Source: Oceanispirochaeta sp. (GTDB taxonomy: Bacteria > Spirochaetota > Spirochaetia > DSM-2461). Taken from it: a stretch of DNA of 64,000 nt. Below are positions 22,440 through 34,783 of this stretch, piece by piece. Every line of letters begins with the position of its first letter. Positions within the stretch are counted from its first letter, which is position 1. The notes below the pieces were generated by a model, which did no database searches, had not been told where the DNA came from, and saw nothing but the letters and a program-made list of their open reading frames with translations. The position numbers and the translations under genes are program-made. Location: positions 32,001 through 96,000 of the forward strand of contig CAXXXD010000003.1 of the NCBI GenBank assembly GCA_963663385.2, given 5' to 3'.

Positions 22440-24518
22440 TCATAAAAGATCTTCAGTTGTAGCAACCCTGTTCCTGCCGTTCTGTTTGGCAAAATAGAGG
22501 GCATTATCCAGCTTTTTCAACAGATCTTCACTTTTCCCGCTCTCTTCGGAAGAGGCTACCCCGAAGCTGCATGTAACCGGCCCGACCGTTTTGAAATTAT
22601 GGGATTCCAGAACCTTTCTCAGGGTCTCGGCCAGAAAGGCCGCGCCCTTTAAATTGGTACCCGGACAGATAATCAGGAATTCCTCTCCGCCCCATCTGCC
22701 GAAAATGTCAGTTCTTCTCAGCTTTTCTCCCACCAGTCTGGCAAGGGTTATAAGTACCTCATCTCCCTCCAGATGGCCGAAACTGTCATTAATCAGTTTA
22801 AAATGATCTATGTCAAACATTATCAGGGCATAGTTTATATTTACCCGTTTTCGAAGATTGTGCTGTGTTTCCAGCGTCCTGTCCAGTTTCCTCCGGTTGT
22901 AAATTCTGGTTAAGGCATCTGTTTCGGATAGGGAGGACAGTTCCTTTTCTGCGCTGATATCATGCCCCACAGTTATATAGCCGGTTTTCTCTCCGAAGAT
23001 ATTATAGAGGGGAAGGGTATAAGCTTTTGACCAGTAGTAAGACCCGTCCTTTTTTAAGTTTTTGATCTCTCCTTCCCAGAGCTCCTCCCTGGATATACTC
23101 TCACGGTACTCTTCCAGAAATGATGCAGGAATATCCGGGTGCAGAGTGGTTTCGTAGTTTCTGGATAGCAGGTCGGTTTCATCAAAACCGGATATACTGC
23201 AATAGGCTTTGCTTGCCTGTGTTATAGTTCCTCTGCAGTCTGTCCGGATGATGGGCACATTATTGTTTATAATATCCACATAGGCATTAAGCTGCTGTTC
23301 CGCTGCCTTTTGTTCTGTAATGTCCCTGGCCACACCGCGGTACCCTTTCAGTGTTTCCGATTCCCTGACGATTATCCCGTTCATAAGCAGACAGAGCTTT
23401 TTCTTTTCCTTTCCCTCCATCCACAATTCCAACCCGCGGATCCATGGTTCATCTTCATTGATATTCACCTGATACAGCCGGGCGGTCATTTTCTCTTTAG
23501 ACTCTTCGCTCATTAAATCCAGAAGATTTTTTCTTATTAAATCTTCAGGACTATAACCGAACAGATTCATAACCGAGCCGGATGAGTAGGTCAGGTTCAT
23601 CTTACTGTCACACTCCCATACCCAATCGGAGGAAACCATGGCAAAATCTTCAAACCGTTCCTGATTTACCCGGAGTTCTTCGGATTTTTCATAGAGTTTA
23701 TAGATGAGGTATTCAAGGAAAAACAGAATAGAAAGGTATATGAGAACGAGAGTTACCACCTCCATGGGTTGCAAGTTATTTTCTTTATAAGGAGCAATTG
23801 TTATTGTCCACTCCCTGTCGGGAAGAACAACCTGAGTCGATAGGGCGCGATCATTCCCATATATTTCGGATGATCCGAACAGGGGGATCTGAGTGTCCGA
23901 TTCACTTCTGTTATCCATAATAGCCAGGTAAACACTGTTTTCCCGGGCCAGATCGCTAATGGGAGCGATTAGACTGTCAAAATCCAATATAGATGACACA
24001 ATCCCCCAGAAACGGTCAGGGTCATGATCCTGAAAAACGGGTACCCTGCCGATAAGACCGACACCTCCCTGAATCAGTTCCAGGGGGCCTGCCAGTATCA
24101 TCCGGTTTTCATCCCGCGCCTTCCTAACCTGTTCCCACTGATCCGGCAGGGATCGGTAATCAACTCCCAGCACCGCTTCGTTCCCTTCCAGGGGATACAC
24201 GTCCTTGATTATGAGATCCGGTGCGATCACAACATTCTTGAGATTATTATACTGCCTGAATAGCTGCTCCGCCAGGGCGTAAAATTCCTCATGGGCTGCT
24301 TCCGGATGAAGCGACACATACGCGGCTATATTATATATGATCAGAAAATTGCTGTTGATGGAATATTCCAGCCGGTTTCTTAATGACGACAGGATGGAAA
24401 GGTTTCTTTCTCTGCTCTTGTTCTGCTTTTGAATGAAGGCTACAGTTCCAATAAAAACGAAAAACAGTGTTACCAGTATAAAAAGCCCGGCACTATTACG
24501 AATATACTTTTTTCTCAT
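22440..24518 (-). CDS. diguanylate cyclase with CHASE and two PAS domains
   Basis: LAGPLELIQGG CHASE; PAS/PAC; RWGGEEF with RxxD I-site; start uncertain. Confidence 0.9.
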   Translation of the reverse strand: MRKKYIRNSAGLFILVTLFFVFIGTVAFIQKQNKSRERNLSILSSLRNRLEYSINSNFLIIYNIAAYVSLHPEAAHEEFYALAEQLFRQYNNLKNVVIAPDLIIKDVYPLEGNEAVLGVDYRSLPDQWEQVRKARDENRMILAGPLELIQGGVGLIGRVPVFQDHDPDRFWGIVSSILDFDSLIAPISDLARENSVYLAIMDNRSESDTQIPLFGSSEIYGNDRALSTQVVLPDREWTITIAPYKENNLQPMEVVTLVLIYLSILFFLEYLIYKLYEKSEELRVNQERFEDFAMVSSDWVWECDSKMNLTYSSGSVMNLFGYSPEDLIRKNLLDLMSEESKEKMTARLYQVNINEDEPWIRGLELWMEGKEKKKLCLLMNGIIVRESETLKGYRGVARDITEQKAAEQQLNAYVDIINNNVPIIRTDCRGTITQASKAYCSISGFDETDLLSRNYETTLHPDIPASFLEEYRESISREELWEGEIKNLKKDGSYYWSKAYTLPLYNIFGEKTGYITVGHDISAEKELSSLSETDALTRIYNRRKLDRTLETQHNLRKRVNINYALIMFDIDHFKLINDSFGHLEGDEVLITLARLVGEKLRRTDIFGRWGGEEFLIICPGTNLKGAAFLAETLRKVLESHNFKTVGPVTCSFGVASSEESGKSEDLLKKLDNALYFAKQNGRNRVATTEDLL

Positions 24519-24578
24519 GATCAATATAGTACGTCCTGGAAACATCTCTTGTCAAAGGTATGTTTCCAGGACTGCCGG

Positions 24579-26399
24579 CTAATTCAGCAGAGCCCTGGTT
24601 TGCTGATCTTTTAACTGAAAAAAGGATACCGTTCTTTCCAGCATATTAGCCTGTTCCGCAAGGTCTTCCGAGGTAGCGGATATCTCCTCCGAAAAACTGG
24701 CGTTCTGCTGTACAACCCTGTCCAGTTGCAGAATCGCGCTGTTTACCTGTTCGACACCCGAACTCTGTTCATTGCTGGCTGCGCTTATCTCTCTTACCAG
24801 TTCGGATGTCTGCTTAATATTCACTATCAGTCTGGAGATCATTTCAGCTGCGGATTCCGCACTTTTACTCGTTTCCTGAGAGAGTTCGGTTATCTCCCCT
24901 GCGGCTTCCTGACTGTTCTCCGCCAGTTTCCTGACCTCAGATGCCACGACGGCAAAACCCTTGCCGTGTTCTCCCGCTCTGGCTGCCTCAATGGCGGCAT
25001 TCAGAGCCAGCAGGTTTGTATTTCTGGCAATTTCCTGAATAATGGAAATCTTCTCTATAATTGATTTCATGGCTTCCACAGCTTCTTTTACAGCGGCTCC
25101 GCTCTCTTCTGCATCCCTGGCAGCCTGTTCCGCCATTTTCTCGGTTTGCATGGCATTGTGGGCATTCTGGGAAATATTCGAGCCCATTTCCTCCATAGAG
25201 GCGGATACCTCTTCCGCTGCTGTCGCCTGGGAGGAAGCTCCTTCCGACATCTGTGCTGTGTTGGAGCTGAGCTGAACACTGCCCGATGCAACAGAACCGG
25301 ATGCTTCCATAACCTTCCCGACAACATCGGCTATCTTGACAGACATTTCCCGCAGGGCATTGGCAAGGTCTCCCACCTCATCATTCGTATAAACATCCAG
25401 AGTGGCATTCAAGTTTCCCCCCGCAAGTGTATTGGCAAACTGTACGCCCTTCTGCAGAGATCTGGTAATTCTGTTTAATATAGTTATGAAAACAAACAGG
25501 GAAATAAAGACTATGACAACCAGCAGGATAATGACATTCCTGACAAAGGCTGTCAGAGTAGAGGTAAATTCCGCAAGCGGGTAGGCAACGATCCATGTGG
25601 CTTCTTCATATTTCATGGCACCGTAAAAGGTATCGTTCAGCACCTTAAAACCCTCTCCCCTTACAGATTGTAAAAAGAACTTAAGCTCTTCGTCATTAAG
25701 GGATTTTCCAACCTTGTTCAATTCGGTATGTCCCATAATTGTAAAATTATTATCTATAAGAAAGGCTGTTCCATTGTGCGAGATCTGGAGACCTTCGAAA
25801 GTACTGGCAACGGAACTGGATTCGATTACACTCTGCAGCTCCTTTGGCGTAATTCCAATCTGTACAATCCCCGGAGCATCTTTTCTGGCCACTCCTATAT
25901 ACTGGAACAGTACTTTATCCACACCTCTGGGCGCCGGATCCTGAGCCAGGGTCAGGTCAGGATCCTTCAGAATCCGGAGGAAGGGTTTTGTCTGCTCCGA
26001 GGTTGCAAAATCAAACCCGAAAAATCCGGGAATATTCCCCCACCGGAGTACACCCTCGCCGTCGGTTACATGAATCTCGTCTATTCCGATCGCCTCGGCC
26101 AGGGCAGCCATGTTCTCCGTTTCGATTAAAGCGGGATCTGTCTGGATTGTTTCTGCAACAGATTTGGCAATACGGATGAAATTTTTATTAAGGGATTCTT
26201 TCAGAATATTAATCTGTTCCTGGGAATCCTTCAATGCCGTGGTAATCTCAGAAAGCTGCTCTTCAGCTGTAAGAAGCATCAAGTCATCGATGGAATTTCT
26301 CTGAAGTACATAGGAATAGGTTGAAACCAGAACGAGCGACACAATAAGGATCGCTGATATGGGAAGCAATATTTTAGTTTTAACACTGAGTTTTATCAT
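24579..26399 (-). CDS. methyl-accepting chemotaxis protein
   Basis: Two TM segments, [37 protein letters not shown]; its RBS is supplied by the IS right end. Confidence 0.95.
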
Positions 26400-26460
26400 T
26401 ATACAAACTCCTATAAAAAGTCAATCATAAGCCTATTAACAAGCTTACAATTGAACCGGA

Positions 26461-27573
26461 TTACCCAGTTTTTACGGCATTGAATGCAGCCGCCTGCATC
26501 TTCAAGTACTTATCATCCGGAACCATCTTCAACGGATCAAAGGGTTCACGGGTTTTCAATATGGAGTACACTACCGTACTCATCTTTCTTGCAGAGGCGA
26601 TAATACTCGTGCCGCTGCCCTTGTTCTTCTTCATCGCTCTGTACTTCGTCATGATACGGTAATTGCCAGTCGTTTTCCGAGTTCTAACCATTCCCATAAC
26701 ACACTGAACAAATGCCGTTCTCAGTTCTACAGCCCCTCTCTTTGTTATATGCCCATGATGAATCGTCTCATTGGAGTTCTGCACCCATGGTACAAGACCG
26801 GCATAAGCCGAATACTTCTTGGCACTGGCGTACCGCTTGATATCATCCGTATAGGCCCTAATAGTCGATGCCGTTATCAATCCGACTCCCGGGATCGTCT
26901 GCAATAACTGTACATCCTCATCTTCCTTTACAAGTTCCAGCAGGACTTTCTCTAACTGCTTGACCTGGTTCGAAACCTGATCTATCGTAGAAAGCAGCGG
27001 TTCTATCGCTTTGGCAGCGCTTCCGAAACTCCTATGGTCCACGAGACCGATGAGGATGCGCTGCCTTTCTTTTTTACTCTGCAGCGCAGCTCTTTTTGTT
27101 TCAATTCCATACCCTAGAAGCAGTCCGTGAACCTGATTCTTCAAAGATACGACTGATTTAACAAGGATAGTTCTGGATTTAAGAACTCTACGGATATCCT
27201 CACTCTCCTGAGAACAAAGCTGTGATTCGGGAAGCATATCTTTTTCCAAGAACTCTGCTAGAGTTCTGGCATCATGCTTATCCGTCTTTTTCACTGATTC
27301 ATTTACAACTTTGAATTTCAGTGTATTCACAACCACCACCTCAATCCCTGCTAGCAATAGCTTGTTACGGAAGAACCGGGCATTTCCTGTTGATTCCACT
27401 GCAGCCCTAACATCAAGGCCCTCTTCTGTATAGGACACTGCTTTCTCAAGAAATGCTCTGTAACCGTCCTCAGAGGTCGGATACATTCCTGATTCACAAA
27501 TGCTTCTATCATCACTCAGGAAACAGACTGTTAACTGGGATTTGTGCAGATCCACTCCGATACTCATCTTCAT
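26461..27573 (-). CDS. IS110 family DEDD recombinase/transposase
   Basis: Minus strand by direct reading (track says +); GVDLHK, VEST, KTDKHDA (DEDD), TIPGVG, AYAGLVP..QNS; ATG 27573 follows AGGAG. Confidence 0.95.
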   Translation of the reverse strand: MKMSIGVDLHKSQLTVCFLSDDRSICESGMYPTSEDGYRAFLEKAVSYTEEGLDVRAAVESTGNARFFRNKLLLAGIEVVVVNTLKFKVVNESVKKTDKHDARTLAEFLEKDMLPESQLCSQESEDIRRVLKSRTILVKSVVSLKNQVHGLLLGYGIETKRAALQSKKERQRILIGLVDHRSFGSAAKAIEPLLSTIDQVSNQVKQLEKVLLELVKEDEDVQLLQTIPGVGLITASTIRAYTDDIKRYASAKKYSAYAGLVPWVQNSNETIHHGHITKRGAVELRTAFVQCVMGMVRTRKTTGNYRIMTKYRAMKKNKGSGTSIIASARKMSTVVYSILKTREPFDPLKMVPDDKYLKMQAAAFNAVKTG

Positions 27574-27587
27574 ACCTTCGCTCCTAT

Positions 27588-27773
27588 TGCCTAAAACAGC
27601 GCCTGTACGGTGAATTGATTCCATTCTCCTATCCGGTCTCGAAGACCATTGAATGTTTCGGTCACGGCTCTTCATTCTCCTGTACGGTCTCGGAGACCAG
27701 TAAAAATGGCGAACAGTAACCTGGCTGTTCTAAACGATGTTTAGAACATTGTATCAATCCACAAGCCTATGAA
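27588..27773 (-). ncRNA. putative bridge RNA, copy 1
   Basis: Mirror of 33115-33300; boundaries approximate. Confidence 0.7.
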
Positions 27774-28116
27774 GACTTTTTATCATTCCTCCTGTAATAG
27801 AATTTAAAAATCTGTTCACTTTAAATAACGTATAAATGAACTATCTAAACCAATCCTAAAAAAACGTGGTATAGAGTGCTTGGTATCTCTATGAAGTATT
27901 GTGATTATTGAGTAGGGATAGTAATGCCCGTTTGTTAATTCTGTGAAGGCCGAACGGCCCGTCTCATGACAGCGGCCATCCTGCCCGGTAAAAACACCAG
28001 CTCAATTCAGCTCCGTTAAAAATACGTTTCCCGGGAGTCAAAGGCATATCAAATAAGTGGTATTAAAGATCATATATTTTGAAGAGATATCGGGGATCAG
28101 GGCTTATAGTAGGGAT

Positions 28117-29329: not shown

Positions 29330-31222
29330 TTATCCCTGAATCATCTCTTCCCACTCCGTATACATCTTCTCCAGGCGGGAGGTCAGCTTATCCAGCTTGC
29401 CGGCGGTCTGCCGGCCTTTCAGTTTGTCCTTATCCCGGAAGGCTTCCTTTAATAACTCCTCCAGTCTGGATTTTTCATTCTCTCCTTCCTGAATCCGTCT
29501 TTCCAGAGCCCGGCTCCTGTCATCTGCGGCAGGTTCCGTTTTCTTCCTTTCAGCTCCCCGTCTTGAAATCTTTCCGCTGAGCCGCGGCAGAACGGGATAC
29601 TTCGTTCTGAAATACCCGGAGAAATTCCCCTCATAGGATTTGAATCGCCCCTTATCAATTTCTATAACCCGGTCTACCAGTCTGTCCAGAAAGTAGCGGT
29701 CGTGCGAGACCACCAGAACGGTTCCCCTGAACTTTTCGATAGCCTGTTCAATCATCTCCCGGCTGGGGATATCCATATGATTGGTCGGCTCGTCCAGTAT
29801 GAGAAAGTTGGTTTTTCTGTACATCAGACGGGCCAGCTGGAGACGGTTGACTTCTCCCCCGGAGAGAACGGAAAGAGGTTTTTCCATATCCCCGCAGGAA
29901 AAGGAAAAGTTTCTGGCCAGGGAAAAAGCGCCGTCCTTTGACAGAGCTCCCCAGCTTCGAATTTCATCCTCTACTGTAAGGGCTCCTTCCTGAAATTCCG
30001 GTGTTTGAGAAAGGTAGCCCACTATCTGACTGGGGCCCAGGCGCAGGTGAGTACTGTCCCATCTCCCCTGATCCAGCAGAACTTTCAGAAAGGTGGATTT
30101 CCCGCAGCCGTTCGGTCCCACAAGAGCCACCTTCTCCCGGCAACGGATTTCCAGATCAGCCCCGGCAAAGAGGGTTCTTTCTCCAAAACTCCAATTAAAA
30201 TCTTTTACCTGCAGGGCGATGTGTGAGCGGGAATCCTCGTCTCCGAAATCCAGGTTGAGGGCTTCTTCCTCCAGGCGGGGTTTCTCAAGGGTTTTATTTC
30301 TTTCTTCTGCCAGTTTCTGTTTCGCCGTACCCAGGCGCGCCATGACACTGGCCGGCGGATTATACTGGTTCATGGCTATGGTCTGGAGCTGTTTTATCTC
30401 CTTTTCCAGTTTCGCCTGAACCCTGCGGCTTGCTTCATAGGCGCTTTGCTCCGCAATGGCATTTCTGTATTTTTCTGTTCTAAAGGACGTATAGCTCCCT
30501 TTAAATTCAGTCAGTTTGCCCTCAAACAGGTCCAGCAGAACGGGACAGGTCTTTTCCAGAAGATACCGGTTGTGAGAAACAATCAGAACAGCGCCCGGAT
30601 AGGACGCCAGAAAGGATTCCAGCCAGGCCAACCCCAGATAATCCAGGTGATTCCCCGGTTCATCCAGAATGAGCAGTTCCGGTTCAGTCAGAAGGGCTCT
30701 GGCAAAAAAGATCATGCTCCGTTCTCCGCCGGAGAGGGAGCCCATCGGCTGGGTCAGAGGATTATCCAGCCCCAGTTTCGCTAAAAGGGCTTTTCCTCTA
30801 TCCAGAGCGGTGTATCCTCCTTTACTTTCAAAAAGGTCGCATACCTTCTGATACCCGGCCAGCAGCTTTCCCATTTTTTCCGGATCGGTTGCCAGCGAGG
30901 GATCAGCCATTCGCAGCTCCATCTTCTTCATCTCTCTGCTGAGGCCGGAGAGCTCTTCCACCAGGAACTCTTCAATCGTCCGGGACGGCTCGAAGCGGGG
31001 CTGCTGGGGAACGTAGCCGCATCTCAGCCCCGGTTTTTTCATGATGCGTCCCTTATCGGGTTCGTCCTCTCCCGTAATTAAGCGGATAAGAGTTGTCTTT
31101 CCTGCTCCATTGGGACCTATCAGACCATATTTTCCGCCTTCCAGCAACCTGAAGCCGGCGTTGATGAGTATCTCTCTGGAACCGTTATGCAGGTTCACAT
31201 TGTTTGCGTTGATTAAATCCAT
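29330..31222 (-). CDS. ABC-F family ATPase (ribosome-associated, possible antibiotic resistance)
   Basis: Two ABC domains (GPNGAGKTT, LSGGE, LDEPGNHLD; GPNGCGKST, LDEPTNHMD), no TM segments. Confidence 0.93.
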   Translation of the reverse strand: MDLINANNVNLHNGSREILINAGFRLLEGGKYGLIGPNGAGKTTLIRLITGEDEPDKGRIMKKPGLRCGYVPQQPRFEPSRTIEEFLVEELSGLSREMKKMELRMADPSLATDPEKMGKLLAGYQKVCDLFESKGGYTALDRGKALLAKLGLDNPLTQPMGSLSGGERSMIFFARALLTEPELLILDEPGNHLDYLGLAWLESFLASYPGAVLIVSHNRYLLEKTCPVLLDLFEGKLTEFKGSYTSFRTEKYRNAIAEQSAYEASRRVQAKLEKEIKQLQTIAMNQYNPPASVMARLGTAKQKLAEERNKTLEKPRLEEEALNLDFGDEDSRSHIALQVKDFNWSFGERTLFAGADLEIRCREKVALVGPNGCGKSTFLKVLLDQGRWDSTHLRLGPSQIVGYLSQTPEFQEGALTVEDEIRSWGALSKDGAFSLARNFSFSCGDMEKPLSVLSGGEVNRLQLARLMYRKTNFLILDEPTNHMDIPSREMIEQAIEKFRGTVLVVSHDRYFLDRLVDRVIEIDKGRFKSYEGNFSGYFRTKYPVLPRLSGKISRRGAERKKTEPAADDRSRALERRIQEGENEKSRLEELLKEAFRDKDKLKGRQTAGKLDKLTSRLEKMYTEWEEMIQG

Positions 31223-32052: not shown

Positions 32053-33105
32053 ATGTCTACCGAACAGTATGAAACACGAACTATGGATTTAAAACGGGAA
32101 TCGGACAGGAAGGCGCTGGAGGCATTTCTTGATAAAGAAGAGCTTACCATGGAACAGGACCTTGACTATGCGGTCTGTCTGTTTGATGAGGATAAAATTA
32201 TTGCTTCCGGGTGTGCCGCGGGAAATGTTCTCAAATGCATCGCTGTTGATTCCGATTACCAGGGGCAGGCCCTGACAAACCGGGTTATATCCTATTTACG
32301 GCTTAGAGCCTATCATGAAGGTTACACCTCCCTTTTTCTGTTTACAAAACCGAAAAACGAAACCGTATTTTCAGAGCTGGGTTTTTATACCCTGGCGGCT
32401 TCTCCCGATGCCATTCTGATGGAAAACAGTCCCGAAGGGTGTGAAAACTATATTGAATCCCTGGAATTCCCTTCAGACGGTATCCCGGCCGCCTCAATTG
32501 TAATGAACTGCAACCCCTTTACTCTGGGGCACCGCTATCTGATAGAGACGGCCTGTAAAGAGAACCAAAGGGTTCATCTCTTTGTTGTAAAAGAGGATCT
32601 CTCTGTGTTCCCCTTTGCTGCCCGAATGGAAATGATCCGGAAAGGAACGGAGGATCTGAAAAATCTCTTTATTCATGAAGGCCGGGATTATATTATTTCC
32701 CGTGCCACTTTCCCGACCTATTTTATCAAGGACAGTAAAATTATAAACGACAGCCATACCCGGATTGATCTGGATCTTTTTGCCGGGAAAATCGCTCCCC
32801 CTCTATCAATTGTAAAGCGGTATGTGGGAGAAGAACCATTTGACATTGTAACATCCCGGTACAACCGGATGATGAAGGAAATTCTTCCGGAAAAGGGAAT
32901 AGAAGTTGTTGAGATTCCCCGTAAATCGGTGGGAGATAAAGCGGTAAGCGCTACGAAAGTCCGTCGTGCCATGGCAGATGAACAGTGGGACATGCTGAAA
33001 GAGTGGGTGCCCCGTACCACACTGGATTTTCTGCTTTCTCAGGAAGGACGGAAAATCGCAGAAACTATAAGGAAAAGTGCTCGAAAGCTTTTACAGGAGG
33101 AATGA
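32053..33105 (+). CDS. citC: [citrate (pro-3S)-lyase] ligase
   Basis: GNAT N-terminus, IVMNCNPFTLGHRYL, YIISRATFPTYF, RYVGEEP; stop codon supplied by the IS left end. Confidence 0.96.
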   Translation: MSTEQYETRTMDLKRESDRKALEAFLDKEELTMEQDLDYAVCLFDEDKIIASGCAAGNVLKCIAVDSDYQGQALTNRVISYLRLRAYHEGYTSLFLFTKPKNETVFSELGFYTLAASPDAILMENSPEGCENYIESLEFPSDGIPAASIVMNCNPFTLGHRYLIETACKENQRVHLFVVKEDLSVFPFAARMEMIRKGTEDLKNLFIHEGRDYIISRATFPTYFIKDSKIINDSHTRIDLDLFAGKIAPPLSIVKRYVGEEPFDIVTSRYNRMMKEILPEKGIEVVEIPRKSVGDKAVSATKVRRAMADEQWDMLKEWVPRTTLDFLLSQEGRKIAETIRKSARKLLQEE

Positions 33106-33114
33106 TAAAAAGTC

Positions 33115-33300
33115 TTCATAGGCTAGTGGATTGATACAATGTTCTAAACATCGTTTAGAACAGCCAGGTTACTGTTCGCCATTTTTACTGGTCTCCGAGA
33201 CCGTACAGGAGAATGAAGAGCCGTGACCGAAACATTCAATGGTCTTCGAGACCGGATAGGAGAATGGAATCAATTCACCGTACAGGCGCTGTTTTAGGCA
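33115..33300 (+). ncRNA. putative bridge RNA, copy 2
   Basis: 5' hairpin TGTTCTAAAC/GTTTAGAACA (33140-33162); two modules with GGTCT(C/T)CGAGACC hairpins next to target-like TACAGGAG and donor-like ATAGGAG; boundaries approximate. Confidence 0.72.
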
Positions 33301-33314
33301 ATAGGAGCGAAGGT

Positions 33315-34427
33315 ATGAAGATGAGTATCGGAGTGGATCTGCACAAATCCCAGTTAACAGTCTGTTTCCTGAGTGATGATAGAAGCATTTGTGAATCAGG
33401 AATGTATCCGACCTCTGAGGACGGTTACAGAGCATTTCTTGAGAAAGCAGTGTCCTATACAGAAGAGGGCCTTGATGTTAGGGCTGCAGTGGAATCAACA
33501 GGAAATGCCCGGTTCTTCCGTAACAAGCTATTGCTAGCAGGGATTGAGGTGGTGGTTGTGAATACACTGAAATTCAAAGTTGTAAATGAATCAGTGAAAA
33601 AGACGGATAAGCATGATGCCAGAACTCTAGCAGAGTTCTTGGAAAAAGATATGCTTCCCGAATCACAGCTTTGTTCTCAGGAGAGTGAGGATATCCGTAG
33701 AGTTCTTAAATCCAGAACTATCCTTGTTAAATCAGTCGTATCTTTGAAGAATCAGGTTCACGGACTGCTTCTAGGGTATGGAATTGAAACAAAAAGAGCT
33801 GCGCTGCAGAGTAAAAAAGAAAGGCAGCGCATCCTCATCGGTCTCGTGGACCATAGGAGTTTCGGAAGCGCTGCCAAAGCGATAGAACCGCTGCTTTCTA
33901 CGATAGATCAGGTTTCGAACCAGGTCAAGCAGTTAGAGAAAGTCCTGCTGGAACTTGTAAAGGAAGATGAGGATGTACAGTTATTGCAGACGATCCCGGG
34001 AGTCGGATTGATAACGGCATCGACTATTAGGGCCTATACGGATGATATCAAGCGGTACGCCAGTGCCAAGAAGTATTCGGCTTATGCCGGTCTTGTACCA
34101 TGGGTGCAGAACTCCAATGAGACGATTCATCATGGGCATATAACAAAGAGAGGGGCTGTAGAACTGAGAACGGCATTTGTTCAGTGTGTTATGGGAATGG
34201 TTAGAACTCGGAAAACGACTGGCAATTACCGTATCATGACGAAGTACAGAGCGATGAAGAAGAACAAGGGCAGCGGCACGAGTATTATCGCCTCTGCAAG
34301 AAAGATGAGTACGGTAGTGTACTCCATATTGAAAACCCGTGAACCCTTTGATCCGTTGAAGATGGTTCCGGATGATAAGTACTTGAAGATGCAGGCGGCT
34401 GCATTCAATGCCGTAAAAACTGGGTAA
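33315..34427 (+). CDS. IS110 family DEDD recombinase/transposase (370 aa)
   Basis: DEDD motifs as in copy 1; ATAGGAG RBS at 33301; the first catalytic Asp (GVDLHK) falls near the N-terminus as usual. Confidence 0.95.
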   Translation: MKMSIGVDLHKSQLTVCFLSDDRSICESGMYPTSEDGYRAFLEKAVSYTEEGLDVRAAVESTGNARFFRNKLLLAGIEVVVVNTLKFKVVNESVKKTDKHDARTLAEFLEKDMLPESQLCSQESEDIRRVLKSRTILVKSVVSLKNQVHGLLLGYGIETKRAALQSKKERQRILIGLVDHRSFGSAAKAIEPLLSTIDQVSNQVKQLEKVLLELVKEDEDVQLLQTIPGVGLITASTIRAYTDDIKRYASAKKYSAYAGLVPWVQNSNETIHHGHITKRGAVELRTAFVQCVMGMVRTRKTTGNYRIMTKYRAMKKNKGSGTSIIASARKMSTVVYSILKTREPFDPLKMVPDDKYLKMQAAAFNAVKTG

Positions 34428-34486
34428 TCCGGTTCAATTGTAAGCTTGTTAATAGGCTTATGATTGACTTTTTATAGGAGTAGAGA

Positions 34487-34783
34487 ATGAAAATTGTAAA
34501 AACGGGTATGGCCGGATCTCTCGAATCCAGTGATGTCCTGATAACTGTCGACAGCAATCACGGTAAAGGGCGTGACGTCAGCCTGAGCAGTATTGTCAAA
34601 AGACAGTATGGAAAACAGATCCTGAAAGTGGTTGATGATACCCTGGATACCCTGTCCATCAAGGATGTGAAAGTCCGTCTGGAAGACAAGGGCGCCCTGG
34701 ACTGTACGATCCGGGCCCGGCTTGAAGCGGCCGTCTACCGGGCTGCCGGAAGTGAAACCTATCCCTGGGAGAACCTGTCATGA
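34487..34783 (+). CDS. citD: citrate lyase acyl carrier protein (gamma)
   Basis: AGSLESSD attachment motif, DKGALDCTIRAR. Confidence 0.97.
   Translation: MKIVKTGMAGSLESSDVLITVDSNHGKGRDVSLSSIVKRQYGKQILKVVDDTLDTLSIKDVKVRLEDKGALDCTIRARLEAAVYRAAGSETYPWENLS

What the first reader, a model, noticed from the sequence alone, without database searches (positions are those of the whole stretch)
33091..34489. IS110 bridge-recombinase element that targets Shine-Dalgarno sequences and rebuilds them
Seen: both copies have the left flank TTACAGGAG and end in TTATAGGAG followed by T. Removing the 1381 bp restores TTACAGGAG-TAGAGA-ATG (citD) and TTACAGGAG-TTTGTATA-ATG (MCP, minus strand, junctions at 26408/27789). 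Both insertions therefore lie in the RBS of a host gene and are co-oriented with it, and the element's own AGGAG replaces the SD at the same spacing. Known: IS110 elements insert without a true TSD through a shared core chosen by a bridge RNA. Inference: this element uses ribosome-binding sites as abundant, conserved, low-harm targets that also supply host read-through transcription. I do not recall SD targeting described for IS110, but I cannot search the literature.
Basis: partly seen in the sequence, partly recalled or inferred. Interest (0 to 1): 0.92.

Follow-up and report, generated by a model that had tools for sequence, protein, structure and literature searches.

The report
IS110 element that inserts into Shine-Dalgarno sites
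This is a small mobile element of the IS110 family whose own guide RNA spells a ribosome-binding site, so every copy sits just upstream of a host gene's start codon and leaves a fresh ribosome-binding site behind; mycobacterial IS900 has a similar habit, so it is a new variant rather than a new kind.

Summary
The 1381-bp element (window 33100-34480) has 10 near-identical copies in this genome. All 10 lie after a host ...AGGAG (8 of 10 ACAGGAG), end in TTATAGGAG, and are followed by 6-8 nt and a co-oriented ATG of a real gene. Only about 11% of 1444 unoccupied ACAGGAG sites have that context.

It encodes a DEDD/Ser IS110 recombinase and a two-loop RNA in its left end. One loop carries ACAGGAG (left flank plus AG core) and CAUUUUUACU (complement of core plus an A-rich spacer). 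The other carries AUAGGAG and CAUUC, matching its own ends.

In 77 relatives the guide equals the left flank at positions -1 to -7 (79-100%) and falls to chance at -8. A near-identical strain has the empty citC-citD site, skipping exactly 1381 bp.

Related Spirochaetia elements behave alike: 35 of 35 junctions in the multi-copy sets, and 42 of 49 lineages with SD-type guides. One nested subclade has retargeted to other repeats.

Not shown: that host genes stay expressed. The right end carries a terminator-like hairpin and no RNA data exist.

SD-to-start-codon targeting is already known for IS900 and IS901. New here are co-orientation, the RNA-coded SD and a guide order reversed relative to IS621.

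The parts
33091..33099 (+). Left flank: host SD of citD (TTACAGGAG). The last two bases, AG (33098-33099), are the inferred core.
   Evidence: This junction varies between copies, so it is host-derived. It equals the 3' target guide at 7 of 7 positions.
33100..34480 (+). IS110-family element, copy 1 (1381 bp, counted with one copy of the AG core).
   Evidence: 10 copies in the genome. An empty site skipping exactly 1381 bp is seen in run X6.
33100..33314 (+). Left end (215 bp, non-coding), encoding the bridge RNA. It starts GAATGATAAAAAG, which is conserved in 52-79% identical relatives.
33167..33228 (+). Target-binding stem-loop: closing stem, internal loop carrying both target guides, inner hairpin at 33190-33202.
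   Evidence: The stem pairs covary (UA/CG/AU) in 55 sequences. The guide-to-guide 'pairs' of the MFE fold show 0 compensatory changes.
33180..33189 (+). 5' target guide CAUUUUUACU, the reverse complement of core AG plus right flank TAAAAATG.
   Evidence: Occupied sites match TAAAAA at a mean of 3.8 of 6 against 1.99 for unoccupied SD-context sites (MWU p=1.5e-4). Cross-lineage covariation is weak.
33205..33211 (+). 3' target guide ACAGGAG, the same sequence as left flank plus core. It is followed by AAUGA (33212-33216), which is complementary to the antisense strand of the first bases of the left end (handshake-like).
   Evidence: Guide equals left flank at -1 to -7 in 79-100% of 77 loci and 21-22% at -8 and -9. 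375 of 462 matches against 249 +/- 8 when permuted.
33233..33237 (+). 5' donor guide CAUUC, the reverse complement of the left-end start GAATG.
   Evidence: a GAATG start goes with CATTC in the commonest forms. Covariation with variant starts is not clean.
33256..33262 (+). 3' donor guide AUAGGAG, the same sequence as the last 7 bases of the element.
   Evidence: 69 of 81 loci are concordant by script. 9 more (ATGGGAG) are concordant by eye in the alignment. The variants ATAGAAG, ATAAGAG and ATGGGAG covary with the right end.
33315..34427 (+). Recombinase gene (370 aa, start MKMSIGVDLHK, own AGGAG 8 nt upstream).
   Evidence: DEDD_Tnp_IS110 8.7e-21 and Transposase_20 4.6e-19. NF033542 'IS110 family RNA-guided transposase' 1.5e-67. 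IS621 8wt6 9e-16.
34428..34480 (+). Right end (53 bp). It holds a hairpin at 34434-34467 followed by CTTTTTAT, a TTGACT -35-like hexamer at 34464-34469, and the last 7 bases ATAGGAG (34474-34480), which become the new SD.
   Evidence: TTGACT, 17 nt, then TAAAAA (with TG upstream) forms only across the joined ends.
34466..34475 (+). Sub-terminal inverted repeat GACTTTTTAT, paired with ATAAAAAGTC at 33105-33114.
34481..34783 (+). Right flank: 6-nt spacer TAGAGA, then citD (ATG at 34487, 98 aa).
   Evidence: ACP family PF06857, 6.4e-28.
32053..33105 (+). citC (citrate lyase ligase). Its stop codon now lies 3-5 nt inside the element.
26408..27788 (-). IS copy 2, inserted in the SD of an MCP gene (24579-26399, minus strand). 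Left flank is at 27789-27797.

Best explanation
The element is an IS110-family insertion sequence. Its recombinase is guided by a bridge RNA encoded in the 215-bp left end.

One loop of that RNA carries two target guides. ACAGGAG reads the bottom strand of an SD up to and including an AG core. CAUUUUUACU reads the top strand of the core plus the A-rich spacer. The other loop carries AUAGGAG and CAUUC, which read the element's own joined ends.

Recombination at the AG core, inside AGGAG, puts the element between the host SD and the start codon, in the same orientation as the host gene. The element's right end (..TTATAGG + AG) is almost the same as the target's left half. So the right junction carries a full SD at the original spacing, and the host's own SD is left in front of the bridge RNA gene.

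Shown: family membership; 10 of 10 SD sites; guide/flank covariation; RNA stems supported by covariation; an empty site.

Inferred: the circular intermediate with a junction promoter (TTGACT, 17 nt, TAAAAA); expression of the RNA and recombinase by host read-through when integrated; continued expression of the host gene; and that SD sites are kept by the clade because they are many and tolerated.
For: Family: Pfam DEDD_Tnp_IS110 and Transposase_20. NCBIfam NF033542 scores 228 bits against a cut-off of 140. D8, E60, D98, D101 and a serine align with the IS621 residues (IS621 residues named in PMC11208158).

Sites in this genome: 10 of 10 copies sit at (A)CAGGAG, 6-8 nt before a co-oriented ATG, against 11% of 1444 unoccupied sites.

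Sites in relatives: G013 6 of 6 and G009 1 of 1. OY776510.1 15 of 15, plus L045, L047 and L048. Together with this genome that is 35 of 35.

Left-flank covariation: the 3' guide equals the left flank at -1 to -7 in 100, 100, 99, 95, 96, 97 and 79% of 77 loci, and in 21-22% at -8 and -9. That is 375 of 462 matches against a permuted 249 +/- 8 (maximum 280 in 5000 permutations). Within SD-type guides alone it is 143 of 208 against 101 +/- 5.

Donor covariation: the donor guide equals the right end in 69 of 81 loci by script, plus 9 by eye, with three covarying variant classes.

RNA structure: folding z = -3.8. Stems H2, H3, H5 and H7 are 76-100% paired, with compensatory changes in H2, H3a, H5 and H7, in 55 sequences.

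Right flank: it matches the 5' guide better than background does (3.8 against 1.99 of 6, p=1.5e-4).

Empty site: one contig of run X6 skips exactly 1381 bp. Eight congeners have citC-citD adjacent with no element between.

Base-pairing rules used (left guide reads the bottom strand, right guide the top strand, core included in both): PMC11208160 passages and PMC11208158 passages.
Against: Sequence match alone does not explain the sites. 10 unoccupied ACAGGAG sites match at least 5 of 6 spacer bases, and 7 of them fall in my crude CDS calls, including one full 13-nt match. Meanwhile, occupied sites include spacer matches of only 2-3 of 6.

L094 (guide GUAAAGAG) sits inside a LuxR-like reading frame. 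7 of 49 SD-type lineages have no ATG within 3-11 nt, although one of these has a GTG at 6.

Covariation of the 5' guide with the right flank across lineages is weak: 151 of 384 against 137 +/- 6.

The empty allele in X6 has T where this genome's left junction has C at -6, which simple recombination at the core does not predict.

The order of the guides in each loop is the reverse of IS621. My naming of the target and donor loops therefore rests on covariation alone, not on similarity to a solved complex. Rfam 15 has no matching family.

The right end's hairpin plus U5 (-15.4 kcal/mol against shuffles at -5.8 +/- 2.2) could stop transcription before the rebuilt SD.
Confidence: 0.8

Rival explanations
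1. The element targets only a 7-nt word (NNAGGAG) wherever it occurs. The all-SD pattern is then made afterwards by selection, because insertions inside genes are lost and those that regenerate an SD survive. SDs as such are not sensed or preferred.
For: 80% of unoccupied ACAGGAG sites lie in (crudely called) coding sequence. Well-matched sites there are empty. Occupied sites include poor spacer matches. L094 shows an insertion in a reading frame where its guide matches. The 5' guide covaries only weakly with the right flank.
Against: Even if all intragenic insertions were lost, only 57% of the remaining sites are SD-context (0.57^10 = 0.004), and 35 of 35 holds across four genomes. Occupied sites fit the 5' guide better than other SD-context sites do (p=1.5e-4). 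GGAG is kept in the guide in 53 of 83 lineages, on all deep branches of the recombinase tree.
Confidence: 0.3
2. The insertions are polar knock-outs. The right-end hairpin plus U-run terminates transcription, so the rebuilt SD is a by-product of the likeness between the element's right end and its target, and it has no function.
For: A hairpin at 34434-34467 is followed by CUUUUUAU. A stable hairpin is seen in 9 of the 16 other lineages folded (-10.7 to -17.7 kcal/mol). No outward promoter that could include the SD was found. All 10 host genes look dispensable.
Against: The stem has only 3 G-C pairs among 15, and the structure differs in more distant lineages. In OY776510.1 two copies lie about 8 kb apart. 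By my reading of the start of each flanking translation, with no family search, one lies before a gene that looks like a 2-oxo-acid dehydrogenase E1-beta and the other before one that looks like lipoamide dehydrogenase (L033 and L032). Full termination there would silence what looks like a core enzyme operon. All three frames entering the element close within 3, 19 and 32 nt, which fits a design that lets upstream genes end cleanly.
Confidence: 0.3
3. Target choice is made by the protein reading AGGAG directly, and the RNA motifs are coincidental.
For: AGGAG is invariant in most lineages, so the invariant part cannot show covariation.
Against: Positions -3 to -7 vary and track the guide. This includes complete retargeting to CACGGAG, CACAAAG and CGCAGAG with matching flanks. 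The family's RNA guidance is established experimentally (PMC11208160 and PMC11187229: abstracts in the listing, passages).
Confidence: 0.03

Closest known systems
IS621 / ISCro4 (IS110 group bridge recombinases, solved with bridge RNA)
   Same: Same two protein domains, with the catalytic D, E, D, D and S aligned. The RNA is encoded in a long left end with two stem-loops, each with an internal loop carrying two guides. One guide has the sense of a flank plus core and the other the antisense of core plus flank. A 2-nt core is repeated at both ends, and a promoter forms only across the joined ends.
   Different: In IS621 the 5' guide of each loop has the sense of the left half and the core is CT on the recombinase strand. 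Here the sense-of-left-half guide is the 3' one and the core reads AG on the recombinase strand (CT on the other), so the gene cassette is flipped relative to the recombination sites. The strong guide here is 7 nt on the 3' side. The sub-terminal inverted repeat is 10 bp, against 2-3 bp reported for the IS110 group. The target is an SD, not a REP-like sequence. Protein similarity is low (E 9e-16, C-terminal domain only).
IS900 / IS901 of Mycobacterium avium (IS110 family)
   Same: They insert between the SD and the start codon of host genes. The motif CATGNNNNNNTCTCCTT is the reverse complement of AAGGAGA-N6-CATG (PMC8141618 passage; PMC2942039 passage; Doran 1997 by title only).
   Different: Taking the published motif as written in the IS's own orientation, the IS900 recombinase gene runs antisense to the host gene, and the host signals are said to serve an antisense ORF (hed). 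Here the recombinase and RNA are co-oriented with the host gene. The RNA basis of IS900 targeting was not analysed in what I read.
REP-targeting IS110 members (ISPpu9, ISPpu10, IS621 itself)
   Same: They use a short, abundant, repeated genomic word as target (PMC1525189 and two preprints, seen as search listing and abstracts only). A nested subclade of the present group does the same with 8-nt intergenic repeats.
   Different: The main group uses a functional translation signal rather than an extragenic repeat.

Membership tests
IS110 family (IS110 group, bridge-RNA guided) | Recombinase with an N-terminal RuvC-like DEDD domain and a C-terminal Tnp domain | tested here: met
   PF01548 8.7e-21 (residues 5-155) and PF02371 4.6e-19 (222-302). 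NF033542 equivalog 228 bits against a cut-off of 140.
IS110 family (IS110 group, bridge-RNA guided) | Catalytic D, E, D, D and Ser present | tested here: met
   D8, E60, D98 and D101 are invariant in alignment A1 and align with the IS621 chain (weak first stretch). A serine aligns with the serine of YES in IS621. Equating it with S241 rests on my count, which assumes a 2-residue offset in the chain.
IS110 family (IS110 group, bridge-RNA guided) | No terminal inverted repeats and no target duplication beyond a shared 2-nt core | tested here: met
   The ends are GAATGA... and ...TAGGAG. The host AG (or up to AGGAG) is shared. The overlap of the two target guides is AG. The empty site skips exactly 1381 bp.
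IS110 family (IS110 group, bridge-RNA guided) | Long left end encoding a structured RNA with a target loop and a donor loop that covary with flanks and ends | tested here: met
   Left end 215 bp, right end 53 bp. Stems covary. Target guide against left flank. Donor guide against right end.
IS110 family (IS110 group, bridge-RNA guided) | IS621-type order of guides (sense-of-left guide 5', antisense-of-right guide 3'; CT core on the recombinase strand) | tested here: not met
   The order is reversed in both loops and the core reads AG on the recombinase strand. This is a feature of IS621, not a stated requirement of the family. The papers report diverse bridge RNA structures, but their figures are not held.
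IS110 family (IS110 group, bridge-RNA guided) | Circular intermediate with a junction promoter | not testable with these tools
   Only the sequence prediction is available: TTGACT, 17 nt, TAAAAA with TG upstream, across the joined ends.
IS1111 group | RNA in a long right end; sub-terminal inverted repeats of 7-17 bp | tested here: inconclusive
   The RNA is in the left end and the right end is short (not met). The sub-terminal inverted repeat is 10 bp (met). Group definitions come from a PMC11208160 passage.
IS900-like SD/start-codon targeting IS110 elements | Insertion between SD and start codon | tested here: met
   10 of 10 copies here and 35 of 35 in the multi-copy sets.
IS900-like SD/start-codon targeting IS110 elements | Recombinase gene antisense to the targeted host gene (host signals drive an antisense ORF) | tested here: not met
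   The recombinase is co-oriented with the host gene in all 35 junctions.
IS900-like SD/start-codon targeting IS110 elements | Sequence relationship to IS900 p43 | not tested

The most novel reading that the evidence does not exclude
A clade of Spirochaetia bridge-RNA elements may have made the ribosome-binding site itself its address, with both RNA loops spelling an SD (target ACAGGAG, donor AUAGGAG).

Each insertion would then (i) place the promoter-less RNA and recombinase genes behind a host promoter, (ii) hand the host gene a replacement SD, and (iii) create a new near-target at its own right end. Point (iii) would explain the tandem element-after-MITE arrangements and the many donor-like left flanks.

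The cassette is flipped relative to IS621 and IS900, turning an antisense lodger into an in-operon passenger.

The C at -6 of the citC-citD left junction is absent from the empty allele and from congeners, but it is identical to the guide. It could then reflect a link between guide and flank that goes beyond simple site choice.
Probability: 0.3. Interest if true: 0.8.

Novelty: new variant of a known kind. Interest (0 to 1): 0.62.

Why it matters
This appears to be a natural bridge RNA whose target guide is a functional translation signal present before most genes. That bears on three questions.

First, how an RNA-guided element can spread to many sites while disrupting no reading frame: only two upstream genes have their last codons changed.

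Second, how guides drift in nature. Positions -5 to -7 change between lineages while GGAG stays, and one nested subclade has switched to other repeats.

Third, how much freedom the system has in loop layout, since the guide order is reversed relative to the solved IS621 complex.

For genome annotation, it explains 10 recombinase genes wedged between SDs and start codons in this genome, and similar patterns in related metagenome bins. For tool builders, a guide that tolerates 1-2 mismatches in a 7-nt word shows how low specificity can be in nature.

It also puts the 1997 IS900 observation on an RNA-guided footing that could be tested directly.

Tried and rejected
- Rfam 15 scan of 32900-34700 at E up to 1: no family matched.
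- RNAalifold on 55 left ends recovered only 11 pairs. I therefore counted pairs on the single-sequence fold instead.
- First left-end alignment (A2) held one row with wrong coordinates (L012). That row was dropped and the correct stretches of L012 and L013 were added.
- Alternative model, with crossover left of -6 so that CAGGAG belongs to the element and TAGGAG to the host: rejected. The right junction is constant in 31 of 31 copies in three genomes while the left junction varies between identical copies.
- Pairing of the guide's CAU with the start codon: it would need a 5-nt spacer. The spacers are 6-8 nt in this genome and the mode is 6 across lineages. Complementarity at +7 and +8 is at chance. 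Rejected.
- Excision footprints: TTTTATAGGAG occurs 13 times outside the copies, against about 3 expected by my base-composition estimate. Most occurrences look coding, so I made no claim. No solo ends or MITEs were found in this genome.
- Ancestral state of other sites: the SD regions of orthologues in congeners are too diverged to tell. The GFO-family gene had no clear orthologue.
- A flank seen in run X7 was searched in this genome to find a reciprocal empty site: not present.
- RNA evidence: no RNA holder was listed.
- Runs X7, X8 and X9 gave no contig across the citC-citD site.
- Earlier notes of this scan: nothing to show.
- Literature: searches for IS110 or bridge RNA or bridge recombinase together with Shine-Dalgarno or ribosome binding site found no paper linking bridge RNAs to SD targets. 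The one joint hit uses the terms in unrelated places.
Full report
**What is there.** Window 33100-34480 (+) is a 1381-bp element. Its left flank is TTACAGGAG, its last bases are TTATAGGAG, and it is followed by TAGAGA and the ATG of citD. A second copy lies at 26408-27788 (-), with the same flank word, and is followed by TTTGTATA and the ATG of an MCP gene. The two differ at 1 of 1381 positions.

The assembly (4 contigs, 5.3 Mb) holds 10 copies, 99.86-100% identical.
- All 10 left flanks end in AGGAG: 8 ACAGGAG, 1 AAAGGAG, 1 GCAGGAG.
- All 10 elements end in TTTTTATAGGAG.
- All 10 are followed by an ATG at 6 nt (5 copies), 7 nt (3) or 8 nt (2), and that ATG opens a co-oriented ORF of 98-689 aa.
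- All ten ORFs match Pfam families: citD ACP, MCP, H+-pyrophosphatase, URO-D-like, DUF6588, GNAT, GDPD, Zn-ADH, GFO/IDH/MocA and an alpha/beta hydrolase.

Two insertions lie inside operons. citC now ends ...LLQEE* three bases into the element, instead of at the host TAG. A 395-codon upstream frame at C1:363212 ends 32 nt into the element. All three frames entering the element close within 3, 19 and 32 nt.

**Is it more than chance?** Of 1444 unoccupied ACAGGAG sites, 161 (11%) have a start codon 4-10 nt downstream opening an ORF of at least 80 aa. A further 1162 lie in coding sequence by my crude ORF-based calls, and 121 are non-coding without an SD context. Ten of ten is 3e-10 under the first rate. 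It is still 0.004 if every intragenic insertion were removed by selection.

**An empty site exists.** A 693-nt contig of run X6 is identical to the window over the 525 flank bases it covers except one base (the -6 position, below). It joins 33088 to 34470, skipping exactly 1381 bp. In 8 of 10 congeners searched, citC and citD are adjacent with an SD and no element between them.

**What it is.** The ORF at 33315-34427 has the two IS110 domains and passes NCBI's equivalog model 'IS110 family RNA-guided transposase'. Its only solved relatives are the IS621 and ISCro4 recombinases. D8, E60, D98, D101 and a serine align with the IS621 catalytic residues (residues named in PMC11208158).

The 215-bp left end folds well below shuffled controls (z = -3.8). 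It forms a 5' hairpin and two similar stem-loops, each with an internal loop around a short GGUCU.CGAGACC hairpin.

In 55 left ends from relatives, the 5' hairpin, the closing stem of the first module and both inner hairpins keep pairing through compensatory changes. Their paired fractions are 76, 87-100, 84 and 96%, with 117, 41, 10 and 29 double-change cells. The guide-to-guide 'pairs' of the single-sequence fold show none.

**The guides.** The published rules for IS621 are as follows. The left guide has the sequence of the left half plus core, because it pairs with the bottom strand. The right guide is the reverse complement of core plus right half. The core is read by both (PMC11208160; PMC11208158).
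- The first loop carries ACAGGAG (33205-33211), which equals left flank plus AG. It also carries CAUUUUUACU (33180-33189), the reverse complement of AG plus TAAAAATG.
- The second loop carries AUAGGAG (33256-33262), which equals the last 7 bases of the element. It also carries CAUUC (33233-33237), the reverse complement of the first bases GAATG.
- The two target guides overlap on AG, so I take AG as the core (CT on the other strand).

**Test by covariation.** Relatives came from three sources. They came from 41 related genomes, from species-representative genomes (23 loci) and from metagenomes.

I parsed 91 loci by script. Of these, 77 had both the 3' guide and at least 9 nt of left flank.
- Guide and flank are identical at -1 to -7 in 100, 100, 99, 95, 96, 97 and 79% of loci. 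At -8 and -9 the figure is 21-22%.
- At the variable positions -3 to -8 there are 375 of 462 matches, against 249 +/- 8 when flanks are permuted (maximum 280 in 5000 permutations).
- Within SD-type guides alone, 143 of 208 match, against 101 +/- 5.
- Examples: ACAGGAG here, UCAGGAG with flank TCAGGAG in G009, AAAGGAG with flank AAAGGAG in G013.

The donor guide equals the right end in 69 of 81 loci by script. Nine more (ATGGGAG) were mis-read by my pattern and are concordant in the alignment. The variant ends ATAGAAG, ATAAGAG and ATGGGAG each go with the matching guide. Three loci disagree, and two of those are visibly damaged copies.

The 5' target guide is a weaker determinant. In this genome the occupied sites match TAAAAA at a mean of 3.8 of 6, against 1.99 for unoccupied SD-context sites (p = 1.5e-4). 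Across lineages the excess over permutation is small: 151 of 384 against 137 +/- 6.

**How general is SD targeting?**
- G013 (another genus, 75% identical protein): 6 of 6 copies. G009: 1 of 1.
- A Spirochaetia MAG, OY776510.1 (79% identity): 15 of 15. L045, L047 and L048: 1 each.
- With this genome that makes 35 of 35. From this tally I left out L046 (1.7-kb contig, ATG at 4 nt opening only 4 codons), L050 (decayed copy), and L049, L051 and L052 (no right junction held).
- Taking one row per locus, 49 loci with SD-type guides (..[AG]GGAG) have at least 14 nt of right flank. Of these, 42 have an ATG 4-9 nt downstream and one has a GTG at 6 nt. The other six are L067, L086, L098, L100, L122 and L124.
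- L094 (guide GUAAAGAG, flank GTAAAGAG) lies inside a LuxR-like reading frame.
- Twenty-six loci have other guides (CACGGAG, CACAAAG, CGCAGAG and similar). Only 2 of these have a nearby ATG. They sit in intergenic clusters of 8-nt direct repeats.
- On a midpoint-rooted FastTree of 83 recombinases (no outgroup, supports not inspected), SD-type guides occupy all deep branches. The other guides form one nested group, which contains a small SD-type group inside it.

**How it most likely works.**
- Shown: an RNA-coded 7-nt word that is an SD; a second guide fitting the A-rich spacer; recombination at or next to AG within AGGAG; a right end that differs from the target's left half by one base, so the right junction keeps an SD at the old spacing.
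- Inferred from the family's known mechanism: a circular form. Across its joined ends, TTGACT (right end), 17 nt and TAAAAA preceded by TG (left end) would form a promoter (compare the IS621 junction promoter).
- Inferred: in the integrated state the RNA and recombinase genes are read from the host promoter, because they lie in the 5' leader or inside an operon, in the same orientation.
- Open: whether the host gene is still expressed. The right end has a hairpin (34434-34467, -15.4 kcal/mol against -5.8 +/- 2.2 for shuffles) followed by CUUUUUAU, just before the rebuilt SD. No RNA run was listed.

**Differences from what is known.**
- In IS621 the loop order is stem, left guide, stem-loop, right guide, and the core is CT on the strand that encodes RNA and recombinase. 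Here the guide with the sense of the left flank is 3' of the inner hairpin in both loops, and the core reads AG on the coding strand. Seen from the other strand the layout is canonical: the 5' guide ends in CU, the 3' guide ends in AG, and a stretch follows that is complementary to the other partner, like a handshake guide. So the gene cassette is flipped relative to the recombination sites.
- The published IS900 motif, CATGNNNNNNTCTCCTT, is this target on the opposite strand. I take it to be written in the orientation of the IS. That fits an IS900 recombinase antisense to the host gene (hed ORF), and a flip in the present clade.
- The 10-bp sub-terminal inverted repeat is longer than the 2-3 bp reported for the IS110 group.
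- I could not see the figures of the papers that show other bridge RNA layouts, so the reversed order may already have been drawn somewhere.

**Novelty.** Insertion between SD and start codon is in print for IS900 and IS901. I saw Doran 1997 by title only. I saw the Plague 2010 passage and the Conde 2021 passages. My searches found no paper tying a bridge RNA guide to an SD. I therefore file it as a new variant of a known kind.

**Unexplained.**
- The empty allele reads TTTTATAGGAG, with T at -6. Three of eight congeners also have ATAGGAG before citD. This genome's left junction has C there, giving the perfect 7 of 7 match to the guide. Either a T>C variant preceded and permitted the insertion, or the base changed afterwards, or the X6 allele is a deletion that crossed over in TTTTA.
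- In OY776510.1, 9 of 15 left-flank 7-mers are ATAGGAG (the donor-loop word) and only 4 are TTAGGAG (the target guide). Five of these copies sit directly after a MITE-like repeat. The one read in full, upstream of L036, starts and ends like the element. This fits donor-loop 'half-match' recognition as described for IS621 (preprint 10.64898/2026.08.31.748434, abstract only), but I did not test it.

Noticed in passing
L031, L036, L037, L042, L043 (upstream of the element; OY776510.1): A MITE-like repeat of about 110 bp lies immediately upstream of five of the 15 full copies. The copy upstream of L036 starts like the element's left end and ends in ..TTCTTATAGGAG. Its own left flank there is CTTAGGAG, which matches that lineage's target guide.
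   Followed up: partly
L081-L084, L090, L091, L093, L096, L097, L102-L105, L109, L110, L113, L117, L123, L126-L129, L131, L133, L136-L139: Relatives at 51-57% identity carry guides such as CACGGAG, CACAAAG and CGCAGAG. They sit in intergenic clusters of 8-nt direct repeats, with inverted copies about 100 nt away in two of the eight loci whose flanks I read (L082, L084). Where the right junction is held, the right flank often repeats the target word. This is a natural retargeting away from SDs within one nested subclade.
   Followed up: partly
window 33125: The citC-citD copy has a private A at element position 26, where the other nine copies and all four laid runs have T. The copy at C2:510237 has a second private change at position 841.
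   Followed up: yes
L032 and L033 (OY776510.1, about 8 kb apart): Two copies lie close together. By my reading of the start of each flanking translation (no family search), one lies before a gene that looks like a 2-oxo-acid dehydrogenase E1-beta and the other before one that looks like lipoamide dehydrogenase. If so, this bears on whether insertions are polar.
   Followed up: no
runs X6 and X7 (loose ends at 33093): The near-identical strain has the element at sites not found in this genome (one flank is absent from G000), and it has the ADH site occupied as here. Copy sets therefore differ between close strains, which points to recent activity.
   Followed up: partly
window 22440-24545 (-) and 29330-31222 (-): Neighbouring genes are a long sensor-type protein whose C-terminal sequence looks like a GGDEF domain (by eye, no family search), next to the MCP gene, and an ABC-F type ATPase. 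These are ordinary context.
   Followed up: no
G000 genome-wide: TTTTATAGGAG (the element's last 11 bases) occurs 13 times outside the copies. I estimate about 3 expected from base composition. Most occurrences look coding, and none has element sequence beside it.
   Followed up: partly
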